From the NCBI GenBank assembly GCA_010093705.1, contig MU006097.1, forward strand, positions 1,092,715 to 1,156,714: DNA of 64,000 nt. The letters are read 5' to 3'. This stretch comes from Patellaria atrata CBS 101060. Taxonomy: Eukaryota. The notes under the pieces are model-generated. The model saw only the letters and a list, made by a program, of their open reading frames with translations. It searched no databases and was not told the DNA's origin. Shown in pieces: positions 29,970-38,701 of the stretch (the stretch's first letter is position 1; each line of letters opens with the position of its first letter). The translations under genes and the position numbers were made by a program.

Positions 29970-32788
29970 ATGGCTGAAGTTGATATTGCCCCTAACTTCG
30001 GTCTCGAATTGAAGGTAACCCGCGTCGCATACTGCCACTTCAGGAAATTTCCTCCGCTGACCTATAACGATTATTTAGGATGGCTTTAAGCCTGTCAATG
30101 CCTGGGTACTGCTTCCCTCCCCTAAAAGTATCGGGTGTACTTGTTCAAGGCCAATACTCCCCACAGATTTGGCCGACTACCGCTAATATGCTCTCCAAAA
30201 GGTCGCAAACGGGATTGCTTGGCTCGAAGATATACAGCAGTTTTACCGAGAACGTAGCGCAATTGAAAAAGAGTATTCGGGCAAATTAGCTGCTTTAGCA
30301 AAGAAATACTTCGAGAAGAAGGCTCGGAAGACTTCACTCCTAAGTGTTGGCGACACACCTACCGTATCCCCTGGATCGCTGGAAAGGTGTGTTATTAGGA
30401 CATATTGTTGCTTGCTGGAGCTTACAGAAAGATCCCAGTGCGTCTATGACCACCTGGACGGTCCAACTTAATACCCTCGAATCTCGAGCCAATGAGCACG
30501 ATACATTTGCCACGCAACTTATATCTCACGTCGCGGAGCCTTTAAGAATATTAGGGACTCGGTACGAAGAATTACGGAAGTATCACGCAGAGTATGCCAC
30601 AAAGCTAGAAAAGGAACGGGACTCGGTATATACAGATCATAGGAAAACTAAAGGCAAATACGATGCGGTTTGTCAGGAAGTTGAGAACAGAAGGAAGAAG
30701 ACAGAGAGCTCCTTCGATCATGGAAAGACTAAGGCTCAGGTCGCTTACCAGCAACAGCTGACAGATATGTATAATGCTAAGGTCAGAACTTAACTGTAGC
30801 TCTATGTATCTATACTAATAAGGCACAGAACACATACCTGATCAGCATGAACGTTACGAACAAACAAAAAGAAATGTACTATCATGAATACGTTCCAGAA
30901 CTACTAAATGTAAGTCGAAAGAGCAAAGCAACTACAACACCCACTAACCCCTTTGTCTAGAGCATGCAGGACCTCTCTGAAACGAGAATTTCGAAAGTAA
31001 ACTCCATATGGTCTCTAGCGTCCCAGATAGAAACAACAACTCTCACCCGTAGCACTGAACTTATGACCCATCTTTCGTCTGAAATCCCAAGAAACAACCC
31101 TCTACTTGATTCCATGATGTTCGTTAGACATAATGTCTCACAATGGCAAGATCCTGCAGATTTTGTATTCGAGCCAAGTCCTGTTTGGCACGACGATTCC
31201 TCTATGTATACAGATGATGCGTCAAAGAACTTTCTACGGAATATTCTAACAAAGAGCAAAGGCCAATTAGTCGAGCTGCGTCGTGATACGGAGAAAAAGA
31301 AACGAGATGTTGAGAATGCAAAACGTGCCAGGCAAAACATCAGAGAAGGGAAGGATAAACGAGATGAAGTAGAAGCCGTGCGTGCTATTTTCGCGCTTTT
31401 AGGACTTGCTCACGAAAGTGAGAGACAAATGGTTACAGCGGAAGTTGAAGTAACGACGATCACGCAAGCAGTCGGAGACGTCAGCATAGGTGCTAAGAAT
31501 CACAACTTCAAGTCGCAAACGTTCAAGATACCTACGAACTGTGACCTATGCGGAGAGCGGATATGGGGTCTATCTGCGAAAGGGTTCGATTGCACAGACT
31601 GCGGATACACATGCCATAGCAAATGCGAGCTGAAAGCTCCCGCAAATTGCCCCGGGGAACAGACCAAGGAGGAGAAAAAGAAGTTGAAAGCATCTCGACA
31701 GGCACAAGCAAGCGCAGCACCCGCATCTAACGGAATGGTCTCACCAACTACAACCGCAACCCCCAGTTTGACGCGCAGTGATACGATAAACTCAATGAAC
31801 ACACTAAGTTCTGGGTACTCCGCAACGGCCCATCGCTCCGTATCAGGAGTGAGCACAATAGCCCCTGATCCTTCACCCTCTATGGACGATGCACCAAAAT
31901 TCAAACCTGCTCCCGCTACGAGAAAGAATCGTATCGTCGCTCCCCCACCTGTTCAATACATCAAAGATACCGGCAGCGATGTTGGTAGCAGTAACGGTGA
32001 CTCCAATAAGCAACGAGGGAATATGATGTATCCGTACCAAGCGAATGGCGAGGGTGAGATCTCACTAGAGGAGGGGAGAGAGATCACGGTACTAGAACCA
32101 GATGGTAAGCTCGAACCCCTTTTTGATTTCCTCCTATTCTTTCCCTCCTATTCTTTTCCTTCTGTGTTTTTCCTCCTCTCCTTTTCCTCCTCCCCTTTTC
32201 CTCCTCTCCTTTTCCTCCTCTCCTTTTCCTCCTCTCCTTTTCCTCCTCTCCTTTTCCTCTTCCCCTTCTATGCCTCTCTTTTTAATTCTCTCTTTTGTTT
32301 TGTTGCCCTCTCACTGCTCCCTTCCAAGGCCGTTACATCATAGTACTTTGAATCAGCCTACAATTTTCCGTCCACTAACTTCTCCAGACGGTGGCTGGAT
32401 CAAAGTCCGCGCCGGCTCTCTCGAAGGCCTTGTCCCTACCGCATACGTCGATCTCACCCCATCCTCTCCACCTCCAACCGCCCATTCCCTAGACGGCAGC
32501 CACGGCGCGCGGCCCGGCAGCACTTATTCCGCTTCCTCCGTCTCCCTCGCGGGCTCCATAAGCAAGGAAAAGAAAAAAGGCCCGGCCGTGGCACCGAAAC
32601 GCGGCGCCAAGAAATTGAAATACGTCGAGGCGCTGTATGATTACGACGCCAGGAGTGAGGCTGAACACTCGATGAGGGAGGGAGAGAGGTTTGTGGTTAT
32701 TACTAGGGATGCCGGGGATGGATGGGCGGATGTTGAGAGGGGCGGCAAGGTGGGAAGTGTGCCGGCGAATTATGTGCAGGATGTTTGA
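29970..32788 (+). CDS. BZZ1: Bzz1: F-BAR + C1 + two SH3 domains, actin-patch/endocytosis protein
   Basis: MAEVDIAPNFGLELK start, F-BAR FYRERSAIEKEYS, C1 domain HNFKSQTFKIPTNCDLCGERIWGLSAKGFDCTDCGYTCHSKC, and SH3s (EPDDGGWIKVRAGSLEGLVPTAYV; YVEALYDY...GSVPANYVQDV). Confidence 0.96.
32168..32265 (+). repeat. Seven 14-bp homopyrimidine tandem units (TTTTCCTCCTCTCC) in the last BZZ1 intron (32105-32387)
   Basis: Units counted directly; two carry minor variants. Confidence 0.95.
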
Positions 32789-33250
32789 GTTTGGTTTGGG
32801 AGAAGGGAGTTGTGAGGGAAGGGGTTTTGTAGTTTGTGGATGTTCAGACGGTTCGTCTAGATGGTGGAATGACGAGATGATGGGCGTTGGGGCGAGCGCG
32901 GTGTTTGGGTATCTGGTCATGTCGAGCCTTTCTCGTGTTTGTTCCTCCACCCTGCTTTCTTCCTAGACTGGTAGATCGAGAGGGTAGCTGAGCGTAGAGA
33001 TTGAAGATGACGTAGTACTACTCAATCGAATCCTTGATACCATAACACATACAACCTATCAACCCATAAAAATCACGCGTCCATTGAACGCACTTAAAAA
33101 GCGTGACATCCATGACCCACACACGTGCCCCGTAACTCACAACTCACAACACCCATCCCTTCCACATATGCATCCACGACACTCGCCCCTTCCCAATCCG
33201 CCCTCAAGTCCCATACAATATATTCCATAAAGCCCACTGCACCCTTCAAT

Positions 33251-33427
33251 TCCGCCGTGGTGCAGTTGGTTCTTTCCTTTGTCAATTTTCTCTAGTCAAT
33301 TTCGTAATTCCTTCTGTTCGAACCTCACCAACACTAACTTCATTTCACGGCGGTAGATAAAGCAAAATCGCTTCGCGCGGTTTCCTTGGCCCTCCCTAGA
33401 GGAGGGTGATCTTTAACATTTTTTTTT
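33251..33427 (+). ncRNA. Candidate RNA polymerase III-transcribed structured RNA (H/ACA-like layout, tRNA-like promoter), family unassigned
   Basis: A box TGGTGCAGTTGG 33258-33269, B box GTTCGAACC 33316-33324 and T9 terminator 33419-33427. Stem CCGCCGTG (33252-59)/CACGGCGG (33346-53), AGATAA (ANANNA) at 33355-60, hairpin CCCTCC-CTAGA-GGAGGG and ACA at 33416-18. Confidence 0.55.
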
Positions 33428-33762
33428 CTGCTCTTTTCTTTTTTTTTTCTTTTTTTTTTCCTTTTTGCTCTTTATGCATGATTTGTTTATAGAGAGGTGG
33501 TTGATATTCAAGGGTCTAGGTTAGAGGAATAAGTATATCATCACCCTTTATATTGACATCCGTAGTGATTTCGTCAAGAAACAGTCAGAGGAGAGATTCA
33601 GGTCTCTTACCCTATTATTGTTGCTGTCCAAGAAGTAAAATCAACCCACACTCCAATCTAATTCATATGCATATCGTTTCTCATCATCACATATCACATT
33701 ATCCCCCTCGAAACAACCGCATTACAATCTCCGCATATCCAAACTCAACCACCATAATCCCA

Positions 33763-36700
33763 TCACTCCACAGAACCCTCCGCACTCCCCTCCGCCCTGA
33801 TAACCCGGCCCCCACTCAAGACAACACTCCCCTCCGCGCCCCTAACCGCCTCAACCCTATGTGCAATCGTGACCACTGTAGCGCCGCCCAACTCCTCCCT
33901 CAACACTCTCTGCACCCGCTCCGCGGTCTTGCGGTCAATACTCGCGGTTGCCTCATCCAGGATAACAATACTGCTCTTCCTTAGCAGCGCTCTCGCGAGG
34001 CCGACGAGCTGGCGCTGGCCTTGCGATAAATTGCGCCCGGAGGCCTCGATGGGGGTGTCGAGGGTCCAGTTGTAAGAGGGATGCGCGACGAGGGCGAGGA
34101 CTTGGGAGAGTAGGGGGGCTGGGTAGAGGGATAGGGGGTCGAGGTTCGTGTGGAGGGTGCCAGGGAAGAGGATGGGGTCTTGGGCGAGGAAGGTGATGCG
34201 TTGGCGGAGGATCTGTTTGTCGACTGTTGAGATGTCGATGCCGTCGATGAGGATGCGGCCGGACGTTGGGGTGACTTAGATGATTTAGTATGGAAGGGTT
34301 ATGTGAAGGACATTGGTTGACGTACTTGTAGCGAGTAGTGAGAGTGCGAATGTACTCTTCCCAGAGCCTTCATCGGGCGTTAGTAGATTCTAGTACGAGA
34401 GAAGGATCACTAACCAGTTCGTCCCACGATGGCAGTATTGCGGCCAGCCTTTAGTGTTAGGGAAACATTCGATAGTGCGGGTTCGAGAGTTGGAGCATAT
34501 TTGATGGTCACATCCTCAAACACAATATCGCCGTTCTGGCTAGGCCACCATGCTGGTGGTGTAACATCTCCGGGAGGTTCCTGTTCGAGATGAAGCAGCT
34601 CTACTACGCGTTCGACCGAAACAAAGTCCATTTGTAACTGGCCGTACTGCCGGCAAAGGGAGTGAGTTGCATTGACAACTGGGATCTTGTCAACTTATTA
34701 TATATTGAAACATAAGAGAGTGACCTACACTTCGAAGCTGCTATAAGAACAAATGCTGTCAATCCAGGAGATATTCCTATATAAAGTGCCAAGCAAGTTA
34801 GAACGAAAGTAGACGTAGCTGACAGTGCGTCGAAGCGGTACATCAACCACGCCTGCAAACTCCAGTAAAAATGGTCCATTTTCTGGAATGCGTCCGTGAC
34901 TTCTATAACCCGGTCCTGAAACCGAGACTGTGTACAGAAAGCTACATGCGATAAGCACCCAATCCAATATATGGGCCCCATTACGTACCTCTGACAGTAG
35001 TCAAGCCCTCCACTAGAGCACCGAAATTCGACATCAACGGACTTAAAGAAACCATCTAAGCGACCCCTGATTAGTGTGTCTTGCGCGATACACAAACTGA
35101 GTACTCACCTCTAGTCTTCGCAAGCTCTGTGAGGTCGGTAGGAATCTCTGAAATATGTATATAAATCCAGCAGCCAGCGAAAATGAAAATACCAGGAAAC
35201 TGGGAGTAACCGAAGCAATCACTACAACTGAGAATATGAGTGTAACCGAATGTCGAGCGACGTTATAGAATTTCTGACTGATGTTCCCGTCGATGGTGCT
35301 AATATCCGATGTCAACCGATTCATCAGTCGACCAACCGGAGTGACATCGTAGAATCGAAATGTTGCGTGACTGACCCGTTGCATTACGTCCTTGAACATT
35401 TGGCGTCCAGCAGAATACACGATGACAGCCATAAAGATTTGAGCGACTACCCAGGTGGTGGCTTCAGATATCACTATGAAGAAATACCACCATAGCCATG
35501 GCTTGACGTTGTCTTCGGGGGGAGGTAATCTCTTCAGTGGATTCGAAATGGTTTCTTGTCGGTCAGATTCTCCATATGCTTCGCCCCAGTACTTCAGGAA
35601 CCAGTTTTCACCCGTACTACTAGCCCTATATAATACTATGGTGAGGATCAGAAGAGCCCACCACCTGAGTTTCCCTGCTTTTACATACTCCCAGTATATC
35701 GAAGCCTGGACGCCTCCATGTGACCTATGCTCATCCTCGATGAATTTATCAGGGATCGCAGCTTCCATTTCGTCATGATCTTGGGTATGGAGCTGTTGGA
35801 TATGCTCTTGTGATGTTACGCTCTGAAGGTCTTGCAAAGATGTCGTTTCCGGATCTAAGATGTTTGCCTGACCGTCGGTAATCTCAACAATCTGAGTTGC
35901 AATCCCATGGCAGAGTTCTGTTCGATGGGTGGCGAGTATTACGGTTCTACCTTCTAGTAACCTACCCGCAATGCATCTCTTGACGATGAATTCTGCAGTC
36001 TGATGGTCAAGTGCCGAAATAGGATCGTCGAGAAGGAGAATCTTTGCCCTACTGTAAACAGCTCTAGCCAATGCTACTCTCGCCCTTTGACCGCCACTTA
36101 AGCCGACTCCATTCTCGCCAATGTTAGAGAGGTCTCCGTTCTGGAGATTAGCCATATCGGGCATAAGAGCACATGCCTCTAGGACTTCTTTGTAACGGAC
36201 CTCGTCGTACTGGGCGGAGAATAGGATATTTTCTCGGATACTCATACTCTGCAGCCACGGCATTTGCGCACAGTAGCCGATCATTTCGTCTGGTCGTACC
36301 AGCGTTCCCTCTTTTAAGTCCAATTCCCCGAGCAGAGCTTGAAGCAGAGCAGACTTGCCGGCTGCTACCTTCCCGCACACCACAGTGAGTCCCGGCGGAA
36401 ATGAAAGGTTAAGATATTTGAGAACAAATTCGTTGGCGCCCGGCCAAGCGAAGGATGCATTCTCCAAGGCAAGCTCAGTAGCATTTGTATGCCGCATCGT
36501 AGAGTTGTCTTTATCTGGTTCGTTCATAAATGATTCCAAACGACCAACAGCTATGCTAGCATTGAGCAGTACAGTGATTAAATTTGGTATCTCCCGCAGA
36601 TTGGATTCCAGCATCGAAAATAACTGCAGCGCGGGGAATGCAATATCCACTCCTAAGGTCTGACCAGCCCAAGCAGTGTAAGCGTAGAACGCTACAAGTG

Positions 36701-38701
36701 GAAATAAGGTGCTCCCGAATGCATTAGAAAAGGTGATCATTATGTTCCATGCGGCTGTGATAATACGAATGTTTAACTCATGTTGTCTAGCCTCGAGAAT
36801 GTGCTTTAGCCAAGCATCTTGCCAGCCGTACCAGCGGAGGTGACGGATTGCTTCCACAAACTGAGAAGTAACTTTAAGTTTACCATCCGTTGCTCTCCGG
36901 CGAACTACTTCCCACCGCAATAGTATCCTCACAATGAGAGCGTTGAGGACCTGGGCGACCATGACCGTAAGTATGCCGACCAAACAGGACCAGCCCAGCA
37001 ATCTCCATATCAATAACACAGAGAATATTAGACCAAGGGGTTTCGAAGTGAGCATTTGAAAGTCCCAGAATCTTCACTTTTTCTTAGAGAAGTGCCATAG
37101 CTCGTCGAAGATTTTCACGTACCTCTGTGCAATTTCATAAACATCATTCCTAAGTATCCAGTCAGTAAACGTTATTCAATTTGCTAAAGTGGCATACCTC
37201 ATCAGGTTCAATATCTTGCCCATTGAAGCGGGTTGTTTCGAATCCTCCTCAGTTTGCGAAGAAGTATGACTCGGAAGAGCTTTCTTTATTAGAGTAGAAA
37301 ATTGTTTCCACATAACCAAGGGATGAAATCGGGACCGGTCTCTTATGTTAGCAGTGTTACTACTTATTGGTCTTTCATCTGCATGATCTGGTTGTTTCAA
37401 CTTGTCCCCGATGATCTTTCGGCTCAAGGTCTTCTCGTAGAGCATCGTAATCATTTCACCACGCGATCTCTCGTATGCTCGCCTACTATACCATACTCCG
37501 AAAACTGCAGCTTGACTACTTATCAACCTCGCAATCAAAGAGAATGAAGCATATATCAAGGCTGCACGCTTCGGAACTTCTGGCCTTTCCATGGACCGAA
37601 GAAGTTGCTGCAGGGTAACCGGAACGGCAAGATCTATCTAAGTCAGCAGATGCCTACCAGCTTCTCGGTACCTTTGATGGCTTACTAGCAGCCAACTCCA
37701 CAATGGCCAAAGCTGAGATAATCAGAAGATCTATCCCATTAGCTTTGATAAGTCGCCTTACGACTGATCCCTGCAATTCTCGGAATGCATGATGGAGCCT
37801 TCTATGTTGGAATTCGTAACCCAACTTCCATACGTCTTCATCATGCAATTGTCTAAGTGCTCCGATACCAATCAAAGGTGCCATCCAGGAAACTGACATG
37901 AATTGCCATGGTGTGAGGCTATCTTCAGGACTCCGGAGCTCAAACGTTGGGGCATCAAAAGTTGCGCTAATCTCAGCTCGAGACAGAGAAGGGTGCCTTA
38001 AAGGCATATTAAGAATTACTATGACGCTGATGAGCGCTGCCATACAACTGATTAGGTTGGGTATGTCGGTTCTTCGTAACGGTAACCGATCGTGGACAAT
38101 GATAATCAGTTGAGTAACAAATATTGCAGCATGAAGAATCAATAATGAGATTGGAGCCGTTTGAGGAGGGAGGATAAGAATCAGACTGATAGACACAGCC
38201 TACCAAAAGATGAGCAATAATACATCCCATGGCTCTAAAGACTCACCCATGATGCAGCTGGATAAACCTCGAAGACCTCGAATCTTGGCCAAAAGATGTT
38301 GAGGATCTGGAGAATGAGGGCCAAAAAGGACAAGGCCAATAAGATCCGCGAAGGGAAACTGAATCGATATCTAGATTTCCGTGATCCCTCATCATGTTCT
38401 TCATTGGTTTCAGTTATAAAAGCTAGCAAGGATCGCGGTTGAGCCTTTGGAAACAAAATGCGGAGAAGTTGGATCAGAAGTAACAAGACAGCTAGAGCAG
38501 CTGGAAGCACACGAATTATCGAGAGGGCGCATGGTGTAAATGTAGCCTCCGTGGAATCCTAAGCAAATAGTCAGAGCCTAAGGATTTATTGAACGCAGGA
38601 AGGAACCCTACCCAAATCGCATGACAAGATATCCTCTCTTGTGGACGCTGTATTTGTCTAAATTTGCTAGAAAGCACATATTCCTTGATAAAGTTCTCCA
38701 T
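33763..38701 (-). CDS. ABCC/MRP-type ABC transporter (Ybt1/bile-acid-transporter-like), multi-exon
   Basis: N-terminal CHAIW|DSTEATFTPC. NBD1 has VCGKVAAGKS, LSGGQRARVALARAVYS and LLLDDPISALD. TMD2 has FYDVTPVGRLMNRLTSDI. NBD2 has IVGRTGSGKST, LSQGQRQLVGLARALL, ILDEATASID and TIAHR. Stop TGA at 33765-33763. Confidence 0.93.

What the first reader, a model, noticed from the sequence alone, without database searches (positions are those of the whole stretch)
33213..33470. Unassigned Pol III-type structured RNA gene with H/ACA-like architecture between BZZ1 and the ABC transporter
Seen, promoter: an AT-rich element (33213-33231) precedes a tRNA-like start TCCGCCG-TGGTGCAGTTGGT (A box 33258-69). 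A B box GTTCGAACC (33316-24) and a T9 run (33419-27) follow, with further T-runs behind. It is not a tRNA, because the D-stem partner, anticodon arm and T-stem are missing. Seen, structure: 33252-33353 closes a long hairpin (CCGCCGTG/CACGGCGG, then TGCAGTTGGT/ACTAACTTCA). It is followed by AGATAA (H-box pattern), a second domain with hairpins AAATCGC/GCGGTTT and CCCTCC/GGAGGG closed by AAAG/CTTT, and ACA-TTT. Upstream ACTGCACC (33236-43) can alternatively pair with GGTGCAGT. The B box also lies inside an intron-like segment (GTTGGT or GTAATT...CTAAC...TAG 33356), reminiscent of the S. pombe U6 intron. Known: H/ACA RNAs are normally Pol II products, and Neurospora milRNA precursors are Pol III transcripts. 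Inference: a ~170-nt Pol III ncRNA, possibly a Pol III H/ACA RNA, a milRNA precursor or a spliced RNA. I could not assign a family or an rRNA target.
Basis: partly seen in the sequence, partly recalled or inferred. Interest (0 to 1): 0.78.

Follow-up and report, generated by a model that had tools for sequence, protein, structure and literature searches.

The report
Orphan tRNA-like Pol III-type unit
Between two converging genes of a wood-dwelling fungus lies a short stretch with all the signals of a gene read by RNA polymerase III, but it is not a tRNA or any catalogued RNA, and nothing yet shows that it is expressed or conserved.

Summary
It lies in the 970-bp gap between two convergent genes. 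BZZ1 (+) stops at 32788 and an ABC transporter (-) stops at 33763-65. BZZ1 is 100% identical to an NCBI protein named from Patellaria atrata CBS 101060.

The Pol III-type constellation is rare in controls. These are an A box, a B box 45 nt later, an in-register 8-bp acceptor-like stem and a T9 run. A loose A+B pattern occurs 4 times in 1.6 Mb of fungal DNA, and only this one has a T-run behind it. Of 428 decoy A boxes, 2 have an in-register stem of 8 bp or more.

The rest is weak. Overall folding energy is ordinary for this genome. ARAGORN and Rfam assign no family. No homologue appears in 80 related BZZ1 loci, where synteny is lost. The H/ACA reading fails for the 3' half. No read evidence could be obtained.

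My best reading, at about 0.45, is a tRNA-related type-2 Pol III unit of about 170-180 nt. It resembles yeast ZOD1 and RNA170 or the Aspergillus AfuSINE2 elements. The main rival is a chance constellation in a terminator region.

The parts
33213..33231 (+). AT-rich, TATA-like element about 20-35 nt upstream of the predicted start. It could alternatively be a yeast-type poly(A) efficiency and positioning element of BZZ1.
   Evidence: Sequence read. The role is inferred.
33252..33259 (+). 5' arm of the 8-bp closing stem (CCGCCGTG). It is in the register of a tRNA acceptor 5' strand, abutting the A box.
   Evidence: pair I17. Searches show it in the MFE.
33258..33269 (+). A-box-like TGGTGCAGTTGG
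   Evidence: Pattern control. The consensus used is recalled, not taken from a call.
33316..33324 (+). B-box-like GTTCGAACC (GTTCGAAC is a palindrome). No T-stem flanks it.
   Evidence: GTTCGAANC occurs 23 times in 1.6 Mb and 3 times in the window.
33346..33353 (+). 3' arm of the closing stem (CACGGCGG)
   Evidence: I17.
33355..33360 (+). AGATAA, which fits ANANNA (H-box pattern), one nt after the stem
   Evidence: ANANNA occurs at 0.016 per position.
33365..33383 (+). Small hairpin AAATCGC / GCGGTTT
   Evidence: MFE.
33389..33407 (+). GC-rich hairpin GCCCTCC / GGAGGGT
   Evidence: MFE.
33416..33418 (+). ACA directly before the T run
   Evidence: 3 of 264 T>=6 runs are directly preceded by ACA.
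33419..33427 (+). T9 run, the predicted Pol III terminator. Further T10, T10 and T5 runs follow up to 33466.
   Evidence: family D1. Terminator lengths from passages of PMC5356446.
33231..33243 (+). Upstream complement of the A-box segment. It forms a competing hairpin with 33259-33271.
   Evidence: I10; 33228-33275 folds at -17.2 kcal/mol, z = -3.36.

Best explanation
This is a single-copy (within the window) tRNA-related type-2 RNA polymerase III transcription unit that has lost the tRNA cloverleaf.

Predicted mechanism, all inferred:
- TFIIIC binds the A box (33258-69) and the B box (33316-24).
- TFIIIB sits over the AT-rich element (33213-31).
- Pol III starts near 33240-33250 and stops in the T9 run (33419-27).
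- The product is a 170-180-nt RNA with an oligo-U end.

The 5' 104 nt of that RNA close into a long hairpin through an acceptor-derived stem rather than a cloverleaf. Two small hairpins follow.

I think it most likely behaves like yeast ZOD1, iYGR033c and RNA170, or like the low-copy Aspergillus AfuSINE2 elements. That means a weakly transcribed descendant of a tRNA gene. Its Pol III/TFIIIC complex may matter more than its RNA, for example as a roadblock between the two converging Pol II genes.

Shown: the motifs, their order and spacing, their rarity in control DNA, and that the element is not a tRNA or an Rfam family.

Inferred: transcription, the RNA ends, tRNA ancestry and any function.
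For: - Motifs lie in the right order and spacing.
- The loose A+B pattern is found 4 times in 1.6 Mb of fungal DNA, and only this one is followed by T>=5 within 200 nt.
- In-register acceptor-like stems of >=8 bp occur at 2 of 428 decoy A-box-like sites.
- Together these give roughly 1e-3 to 1e-4 expected chance cases per window. This is my arithmetic from those counts.
- The hairpin gives z = -3.92, with 1 of 200 shuffles as good.
- T9 is well above the 5-6 T needed in yeasts (passages of PMC5356446).
- A. fumigatus AfuSINE2 elements are low-copy, 140-493 bp, with A/B boxes, a tRNA-unrelated 3' part and an oligo-T tract. 5 of 8 are transcribed (passages of PMC5063351).
Against: - There is no expression or occupancy evidence of any kind.
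- No homologue was found: 0 exact-pattern hits in the metagenome contigs, and no blastn or nhmmer hit in 80 related BZZ1 loci. Those relatives share only 49-68% BZZ1 identity and none has the ABC gene next door, so this test has little power.
- The donor tRNA could not be identified.
- The tRNA model gives no hit even at E<=10 on 201 nt.
- The 18-mer over the acceptor/A-box part occurs in more than 120 prokaryotic loci, and 0 of the 120 examined are tRNAs.
- The first T-run lies 65 nt behind the stem, not right after it as at a tRNA gene.
- The overall fold is no better than the genomic background, and both strands fold equally well.
- The AT-rich element could be a BZZ1 poly(A) signal.
- The A-box segment also pairs with upstream sequence.
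Confidence: 0.45

Rival explanations
1. This is a chance constellation inside an ordinary terminator zone. The stretch is the pyrimidine-rich spacer between the 3' ends of two convergent Pol II genes. The 'TATA' is a BZZ1 polyadenylation signal, the T-runs are the usual poly(dA:dT) of a 3' nucleosome-free region, and the box-like motifs and the stem are coincidences.
For: - The genes are convergent.
- The + strand is strongly C/T-rich from 33000 to 33450.
- 8-9-nt perfect inverted repeats are common in this 1.2 kb (pairs I12-I18).
- Decoys with an A box plus an in-register stem exist, for example L041 with 9 bp, which is not a tRNA.
- The fold energy is ordinary.
- Lack of T5+ inside the body is uninformative (597 of 805).
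- No homologue was found.
- The finding was picked out of very many windows.
Against: The joint occurrence of an A box, a B box, an in-register 8-bp stem and a T9 is expected at only about 1e-3 to 1e-4 per window from the control counts. None of the 3 A+B decoys has a T-run behind it.
Confidence: 0.3
2. This is a retroposed or decayed copy of a tRNA-derived SINE-like element, a member of a dispersed family in this genome rather than a unique gene.
For: It has the layout described for the Aspergillus AfuSINE2 elements: a tRNA-related head with A and B boxes, an unrelated 3' part and an oligo-T tract (PMC5063351 passages).
Against: - There is no second copy in the 64-kb window; blastn gives only the self hit and T-rich low-complexity hits.
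- There is no target-site duplication. The longest shared flank word is 6 nt, reached by 243 of 500 shuffles.
- There is no A-rich or LINE-like tail.
- Genome-wide copy number could not be tested because no genome is held.
Confidence: 0.1
3. This is a box H/ACA guide RNA, made by Pol III or by Pol II. The 5' hairpin would be a pseudouridylation guide with pocket strands GUGC and UCAUUU, AGAUAA would be the H box, and ACA would lie 3 nt from a trimmed oligo-U end.
For: - ANANNA lies one nt after the stem, against 0.016 per position by chance.
- ACA sits directly before the T-run, as at only 3 of 264 T>=6 runs.
- In the MFE the base of the upper stem (33339/33340) lies 15 nt from the H box. This fits the recalled 14-16-nt rule.
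Against: - The 3' domain folds as two adjacent small hairpins without a pocket.
- The upper stem ends 8 nt from ACA.
- The proposed AAAG/CTTT closing stem overlaps the H box and is absent from the MFE.
- The 5' pocket is mostly base-paired in the MFE and is topped by a 62-nt poorly structured loop.
- No Rfam H/ACA family matches the + strand even at E<=10.
- No rRNA was available, so no target could be sought.
Confidence: 0.08
4. This is a spliced Pol III RNA or a milRNA precursor.
For: GTTGGT or GTAATT, CTAAC and TAG motifs lie in order inside the hairpin.
Against: The same loose intron pattern occurs 13 times on the + strand and 10 times on the - strand of the window. There is no small-RNA or splice-junction evidence. 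No long perfect hairpin of the miRNA-precursor type is present.
Confidence: 0.02

Closest known systems
S. cerevisiae ZOD1 and iYGR033c (tRNA-gene relics) and RNA170 (orphan Pol III transcript)
   Same: These are non-tRNA loci with tRNA-type internal promoter elements. They are occupied and weakly transcribed by Pol III, have no known RNA function, and are unique in the genome (passages of PMC5356446).
   Different: For those loci, occupancy and transcripts are shown and the donor tRNA is known. Here neither is known. This element keeps a perfect acceptor-like stem and adds a 65-nt 3' domain. There is no sequence relation.
AfuSINE2 tRNA-related SINE-like elements of Aspergillus fumigatus
   Same: They occur in a filamentous ascomycete, are low-copy and 140-493 bp long, and carry degenerate A and B boxes. 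They have a tRNA-unrelated 3' extension ahead of an oligo-T tract, and some are weakly transcribed (passages of PMC5063351).
   Different: Those elements have target-site duplications of 4-14 bp and tRNAscan-recognisable heads. Here there is no duplication and no tRNA call.
Rodent BC1 RNA (recalled, not from a call)
   Same: It is a Pol III transcript of about 150 nt. Its tRNA-derived 5' domain carries the A and B boxes but folds as one long hairpin instead of a cloverleaf. An unrelated 3' part and an oligo-U end follow.
   Different: BC1 is a mammalian, neuron-specific RNA with an A-rich middle region and a known donor tRNA. No homology is implied; this is an analogy of design only.
Box H/ACA snoRNAs
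   Same: Both have a hairpin, an ANANNA motif, a second structured domain and ACA near the predicted 3' end. The 5' hairpin has 15-nt spacing.
   Different: The 3' domain lacks the single-hairpin-with-pocket design and the 14-16-nt spacing. No family match and no target were found. I know of no Pol III H/ACA gene with tRNA-type boxes. The listings of searches show none; one search used the term 'snoRNA', not 'H/ACA'; in one search none of the 12 listed papers holds 'box H ACA'.

Membership tests
tRNA gene (Rfam RF00005) | Cloverleaf with D, anticodon and T arms | tested here: not met
   ARAGORN finds 0 genes in the window, with and without introns. Rfam gives no tRNA hit at the gathering score or at E<=10 on 1,301 nt and 201 nt. 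By eye there is no D-stem 3' strand, no anticodon arm and no T-stem, and 21 nt lie between the T-loop motif and the 3' arm.
Type-2 (tRNA-type) Pol III transcription unit | Internal A box and B box at a workable spacing | tested here: met
   TGGTGCAGTTGG lies at 33258-69 and GTTCGAACC at 33316-24, with 46 nt between them. It is one of only 4 loose-pattern matches in 1.6 Mb. The consensus is recalled.
Type-2 (tRNA-type) Pol III transcription unit | Oligo-T terminator downstream, none inside | tested here: met
   T9 lies at 33419-27 and the longest internal T run is 4. The lack of an internal T5+ is not informative (597 of 805 windows).
Type-2 (tRNA-type) Pol III transcription unit | Pol III/TFIIIC occupancy and a transcript with an oligo-U 3' end | not testable with these tools
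No listed run is on record as RNA.
Box H/ACA snoRNA | H box ANANNA in the hinge, and ACA 3 nt from the 3' end | tested here: inconclusive
   AGATAA lies at 33355-60 and ACA at 33416-18, directly before the T9. The real 3' end is unknown.
Box H/ACA snoRNA | Two hairpins, each with an internal-loop pocket whose top lies 14-16 nt from the H or ACA box (rule recalled) | tested here: not met
   The 5' hairpin gives 15 nt in the MFE. The 3' domain is two adjacent hairpins, with 8 nt from the upper stem to ACA.
Box H/ACA snoRNA | Guide complementarity to an rRNA or snRNA pseudouridine site | not testable with these tools
   No fungal rRNA sequence could be fetched. The request gave no usable answer.
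tRNA-derived SINE | Dispersed copies, target-site duplication, LINE-related or A-rich tail | tested here: not met
   There is no other copy in the 64 kb, no duplication beyond chance, and the tail is T-rich on the promoter strand. The whole genome could not be searched.
Any Rfam 15 family | Covariance-model score at or above the gathering threshold | tested here: not met
   There are 0 matches in the window. At E<=10 there are only noise-level hits of 10-18 bits.

The most novel reading that the evidence does not exclude
This could be a Pol III-transcribed, tRNA-promoter-driven H/ACA-like RNA. The acceptor-derived stem would serve as the lower stem of a guide hairpin. The Pol III oligo-U end would supply the three nucleotides after ACA. 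That would be an H/ACA gene born from a tRNA gene in a Dothideomycete.
Probability: 0.05. Interest if true: 0.75.

Novelty: new member of a known kind. Interest (0 to 1): 0.3.

Why it matters
If transcribed, it would add an orphan to the very short list of non-tRNA Pol III genes known in filamentous ascomycetes. It would be a clean example of a tRNA gene remodelled into a hairpin RNA. Its place between two converging genes would make it a natural test case for Pol III complexes acting as barriers to Pol II read-through outside budding yeast. If it is only a chance constellation, it shows how far box-plus-stem patterns can mislead in T-rich terminator regions.

Tried and rejected
- Whole-genome search: no genome is held for this window.
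- Sequencing runs: no RNA holder is listed. The two runs that hold the stretch are contigs of uncertain kind.
- Exact A-box...B-box pattern in the metagenome contigs: 0 hits.
- 80 BZZ1 loci fetched from metagenomes:
  - The best blastn hit of the 221-nt candidate is 20 nt at E = 0.44. The best hit of the 977-nt spacer is 25 nt at E = 0.049. nhmmer finds nothing at E<=10.
  - ARAGORN makes only two spurious calls with 2.5-kb 'introns'.
  - tblastn with two ABC-transporter fragments gives 0 hits at 1e-10, so synteny is lost.
  - Rfam at the gathering score on 12 of the 80 loci (130,046 bases) gives 0.
  - An all-against-all comparison of the 1.8 kb downstream of BZZ1 in 66 loci plus the window gives 89 pairs with similarity, none involving the window.
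This gives no lead on a donor tRNA.
- Fetching tRNA genes from the large fungal contigs behind the loci: those records are not held.
- Relaxed ARAGORN (ps80) gave 115 calls in 64 kb, which is noise.
- Vault-RNA or Y-RNA-like panhandle and RNase P or SRP leader readings: I considered these from memory and dropped them. The T-run is 65 nt behind the stem and no Rfam model matches.
- Literature searches show, in their listings, no paper on ncRNA of this fungus and none on Pol III-made H/ACA RNAs in fungi. One search used the term 'snoRNA', not 'H/ACA', and none of its 20 listed papers holds both 'snoRNA' and 'filamentous fungi'; in one search none of the 12 listed papers holds 'box H ACA', so the H/ACA point rests on weak listings.

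Full report
**What is in the sequence**

- the AT-rich ATACAATATATTCCATAAA (33213-31)
- TGGTGCAGTTGG (33258-69)
- GTTCGAACC (33316-24)
- the perfect 8-bp inverted repeat CCGCCGTG/CACGGCGG (33252-59 and 33346-53, pair I17)
- AGATAA (33355-60)
- two small hairpins (33365-83 and 33389-407)
- ACA (33416-18)
- a T9 run (33419-27), followed by T10, T10 and T5 runs

The upstream complement of the A-box segment is also real. It is 11 nt long and 91% complementary (I10). It forms a competing hairpin: 33228-33275 folds at -17.2 kcal/mol with z = -3.36.

**Context**

- Stop-to-stop ORFs show that the BZZ1-like gene on the + strand ends at 32788.
- The ABC transporter on the - strand ends at 33763-65.
- The element therefore lies in a 970-bp spacer between convergent genes, not between a promoter and a gene.
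- The BZZ1 exon is 100% identical to an NCBI protein named from Patellaria atrata CBS 101060. The next-best proteins are about 70% identical, so no close relative is on hand.
- The + strand is markedly C/T-rich from about 33000 to 33450.
- From general knowledge of yeast-type 3'-end signals, which was not tested here, TATATT plus CATAAAG at 33219-32 could be a BZZ1 poly(A) signal. Similar motifs lie on the - strand at about 33553-33468 for the ABC gene.
- The candidate thus fills the gap between two plausible poly(A) sites.

**Known families**

- ARAGORN finds no tRNA in the 64 kb, with or without introns.
- Rfam 15 gives no match at the gathering score.
- At E<=10 on 1,301 nt the only hits are two weak C/D-box matches on the opposite strand, outside the finding.
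- At E<=10 on 201 nt there are only hits of 10-17 bits, all with E>1 and none to tRNA or to an H/ACA family.
- By eye the D-stem 3' strand, the anticodon arm and the T-stem are missing. Also, 21 nt separate the T-loop-like motif from the 3' arm.
- It is not a tRNA gene, and it is not a tRNA with a canonical intron.

**Is the constellation more than chance?**

As control DNA I used the window plus 80 fungal loci fetched,635 bases read on both strands.
- A degenerate A box, 25-70 nt, then a degenerate B box matched 4 times. Three matches were decoys, and only the candidate has T>=5 within 200 nt downstream.
- Of 429 A-box-like sites, 7 have a perfect stem of >=7 bp in the tRNA register (6 decoys). 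Three have >=8 bp (2 decoys, L041 and L051).
- The L041 decoy is not tRNA-like on inspection.
- Multiplying these rates gives about 1e-3 to 1e-4 chance cases per window. This is my arithmetic from the counts. It is small, but not negligible for a finding picked out of very many windows.
- ACA directly precedes only 3 of 264 T>=6 runs, and ANANNA occurs at 0.016 per position.

- The 171-nt fold of -42.9 kcal/mol (z = -2.24 against shuffles) is matched or beaten by 24% of 1,535 GC-matched genomic 171-mers. The reverse complement folds at -43.3.
- The 3' domain gives z = -1.59.
- The 104-nt hairpin does stand out: z = -3.92 on the + strand and -3.23 on the - strand. This is mainly through the GC-rich 8-bp stem.
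- Lack of an internal T5+ is seen in 597 of 805 windows of 169 nt in the spacer.
- The loose intron pattern occurs 23 times in the window.

**Relatives**

- An exact-pattern scan of the metagenome contigs found nothing.
- A BZZ1 alignment of 27 proteins brought 80 fungal loci with 49-68% BZZ1 identity.
- None of them shows similarity to the candidate. The best blastn hit is 20 nt at E = 0.44, and nhmmer finds nothing at E<=10.
- None has the ABC transporter nearby.
- None has a believable tRNA.
- 12 of the 80 loci were scanned with Rfam, with 0 matches.
- In an all-against-all comparison of the downstream 1.8 kb of 66 loci plus the window, no pair involves the window.
- Because synteny is lost and the relatives are distant, this says only that the element is not an old, position-conserved gene.
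- The 18-mer spanning the acceptor-like strand and A box occurs in more than 120 prokaryotic loci. None of the 120 examined is a tRNA, so I could not tie the 5' part to a donor tRNA.
- There is no second copy in the window and no target-site duplication.

**H/ACA reading, worked by hand on the MFE**

The spacing rule used here is recalled, not taken from a call.
- In the 5' hairpin the 8-bp lower stem is followed by the strands GUGC and UCAUUU, then by a 7-bp upper stem.
- The base of that upper stem lies 15 nt from AGAUAA, which fits the 14-16-nt ruler.
- However, those strands mostly pair with each other in the MFE, and the upper stem carries a 62-nt poorly structured loop.
- The 3' domain is two side-by-side hairpins.
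- The upper stem ends 8 nt from ACA.
- A defining feature is therefore not met for the 3' half.
- The target test could not be run because no fungal rRNA could be fetched.

**Literature**

- Passages of PMC5356446 describe ZOD1, an ancient tRNA-Ile gene weakly transcribed by Pol III. They also describe YGR033C (from a tDNA-Arg), RNA170 (function unknown) and TFIIIC-only ETC sites. They state that 5 T suffice for termination in S. pombe and 6 in S. cerevisiae.
- Passages of PMC5063351 describe eight low-copy tRNA-related AfuSINE2 families in Aspergillus fumigatus. They have A and B boxes, a tRNA-unrelated 3' part before an oligo-T tract, and target-site duplications. Five of the eight are transcribed.
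- PMC4228148 appeared only in a search listing. Its title and abstract start concern effects of Pol III complexes on neighbouring Pol II transcription.
- Searches listed no paper on ncRNAs of this fungus and none on Pol III-made H/ACA RNAs in fungi. One search used the term 'snoRNA', not 'H/ACA', and none of its 20 listed papers holds both 'snoRNA' and 'filamentous fungi'; in one search none of the 12 listed papers holds 'box H ACA'. I saw listings only.
- BC1 RNA, the S. pombe and Neurospora upstream TATA requirement and the box consensus sequences are recalled.

**Verdict**

The perfect boxes and stem beside a completely unrecognisable interior argue against plain neutral decay of a tRNA gene. 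They argue for either selection on promoter and stem or a remodelled gene.

There is still no evidence of transcription, occupancy, conservation or a donor tRNA. A chance constellation in a T-rich convergent terminator zone remains a serious rival (about 0.3). The H/ACA, spliced-RNA and milRNA proposals are not supported.

It is best filed as a possible new member of the known kind 'tRNA-derived orphan Pol III units'. Interest is modest until an RNA is shown.

Noticed in passing
window 33582-33692, minus strand: There is a C/D-box-like stretch 70-180 nt downstream of the ABC transporter stop, with GTGATGATGA near its 5' end and CTGA near its 3' end. The Rfam snoZ30 match is 18.5 bits at E = 1.4, against a gathering score of 50. 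By eye there is no terminal stem. This is probably noise inside the 3' UTR.
   Followed up: partly
window 33228-33275, plus strand: The A-box segment is also the 3' arm of a second hairpin with upstream sequence (ACTGCACC / GGTGCAGT core; -17.2 kcal/mol, z = -3.36). This hairpin is mutually exclusive with the long hairpin. It could form only in a transcript that starts further upstream.
   Followed up: partly
L001-L080 against window 33763-37073: In none of the 80 related BZZ1 loci is the ABC transporter found within the fetched flanks. The BZZ1-ABC convergent arrangement is therefore specific to this lineage, or at least not shared with the sampled Dothideomycete-like relatives.
   Followed up: partly
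window 33145-33253, plus strand: There are three imperfect direct repeats of a 19-nt CA/CT-rich unit (CACAACACCCATCCCTTCC and variants), spaced 30 and 60 nt apart. The last one runs into the start of the candidate (family D2).
   Followed up: no
L081 and following (120 loci): The 18-mer CCGCCGTGGTGCAGTTGG occurs in more than 120 prokaryotic genomes of many phyla, and none of the 120 examined is in a tRNA. It probably lies in GC-rich coding sequence. What it lies in was not examined.
   Followed up: no
L006, L008, L009, about 420-450 nt downstream of BZZ1: A 31-nt stretch is 81% identical to window 33182-33212, at a similar distance behind the BZZ1 stop (E = 0.6). It is C/T-rich and probably chance.
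   Followed up: no
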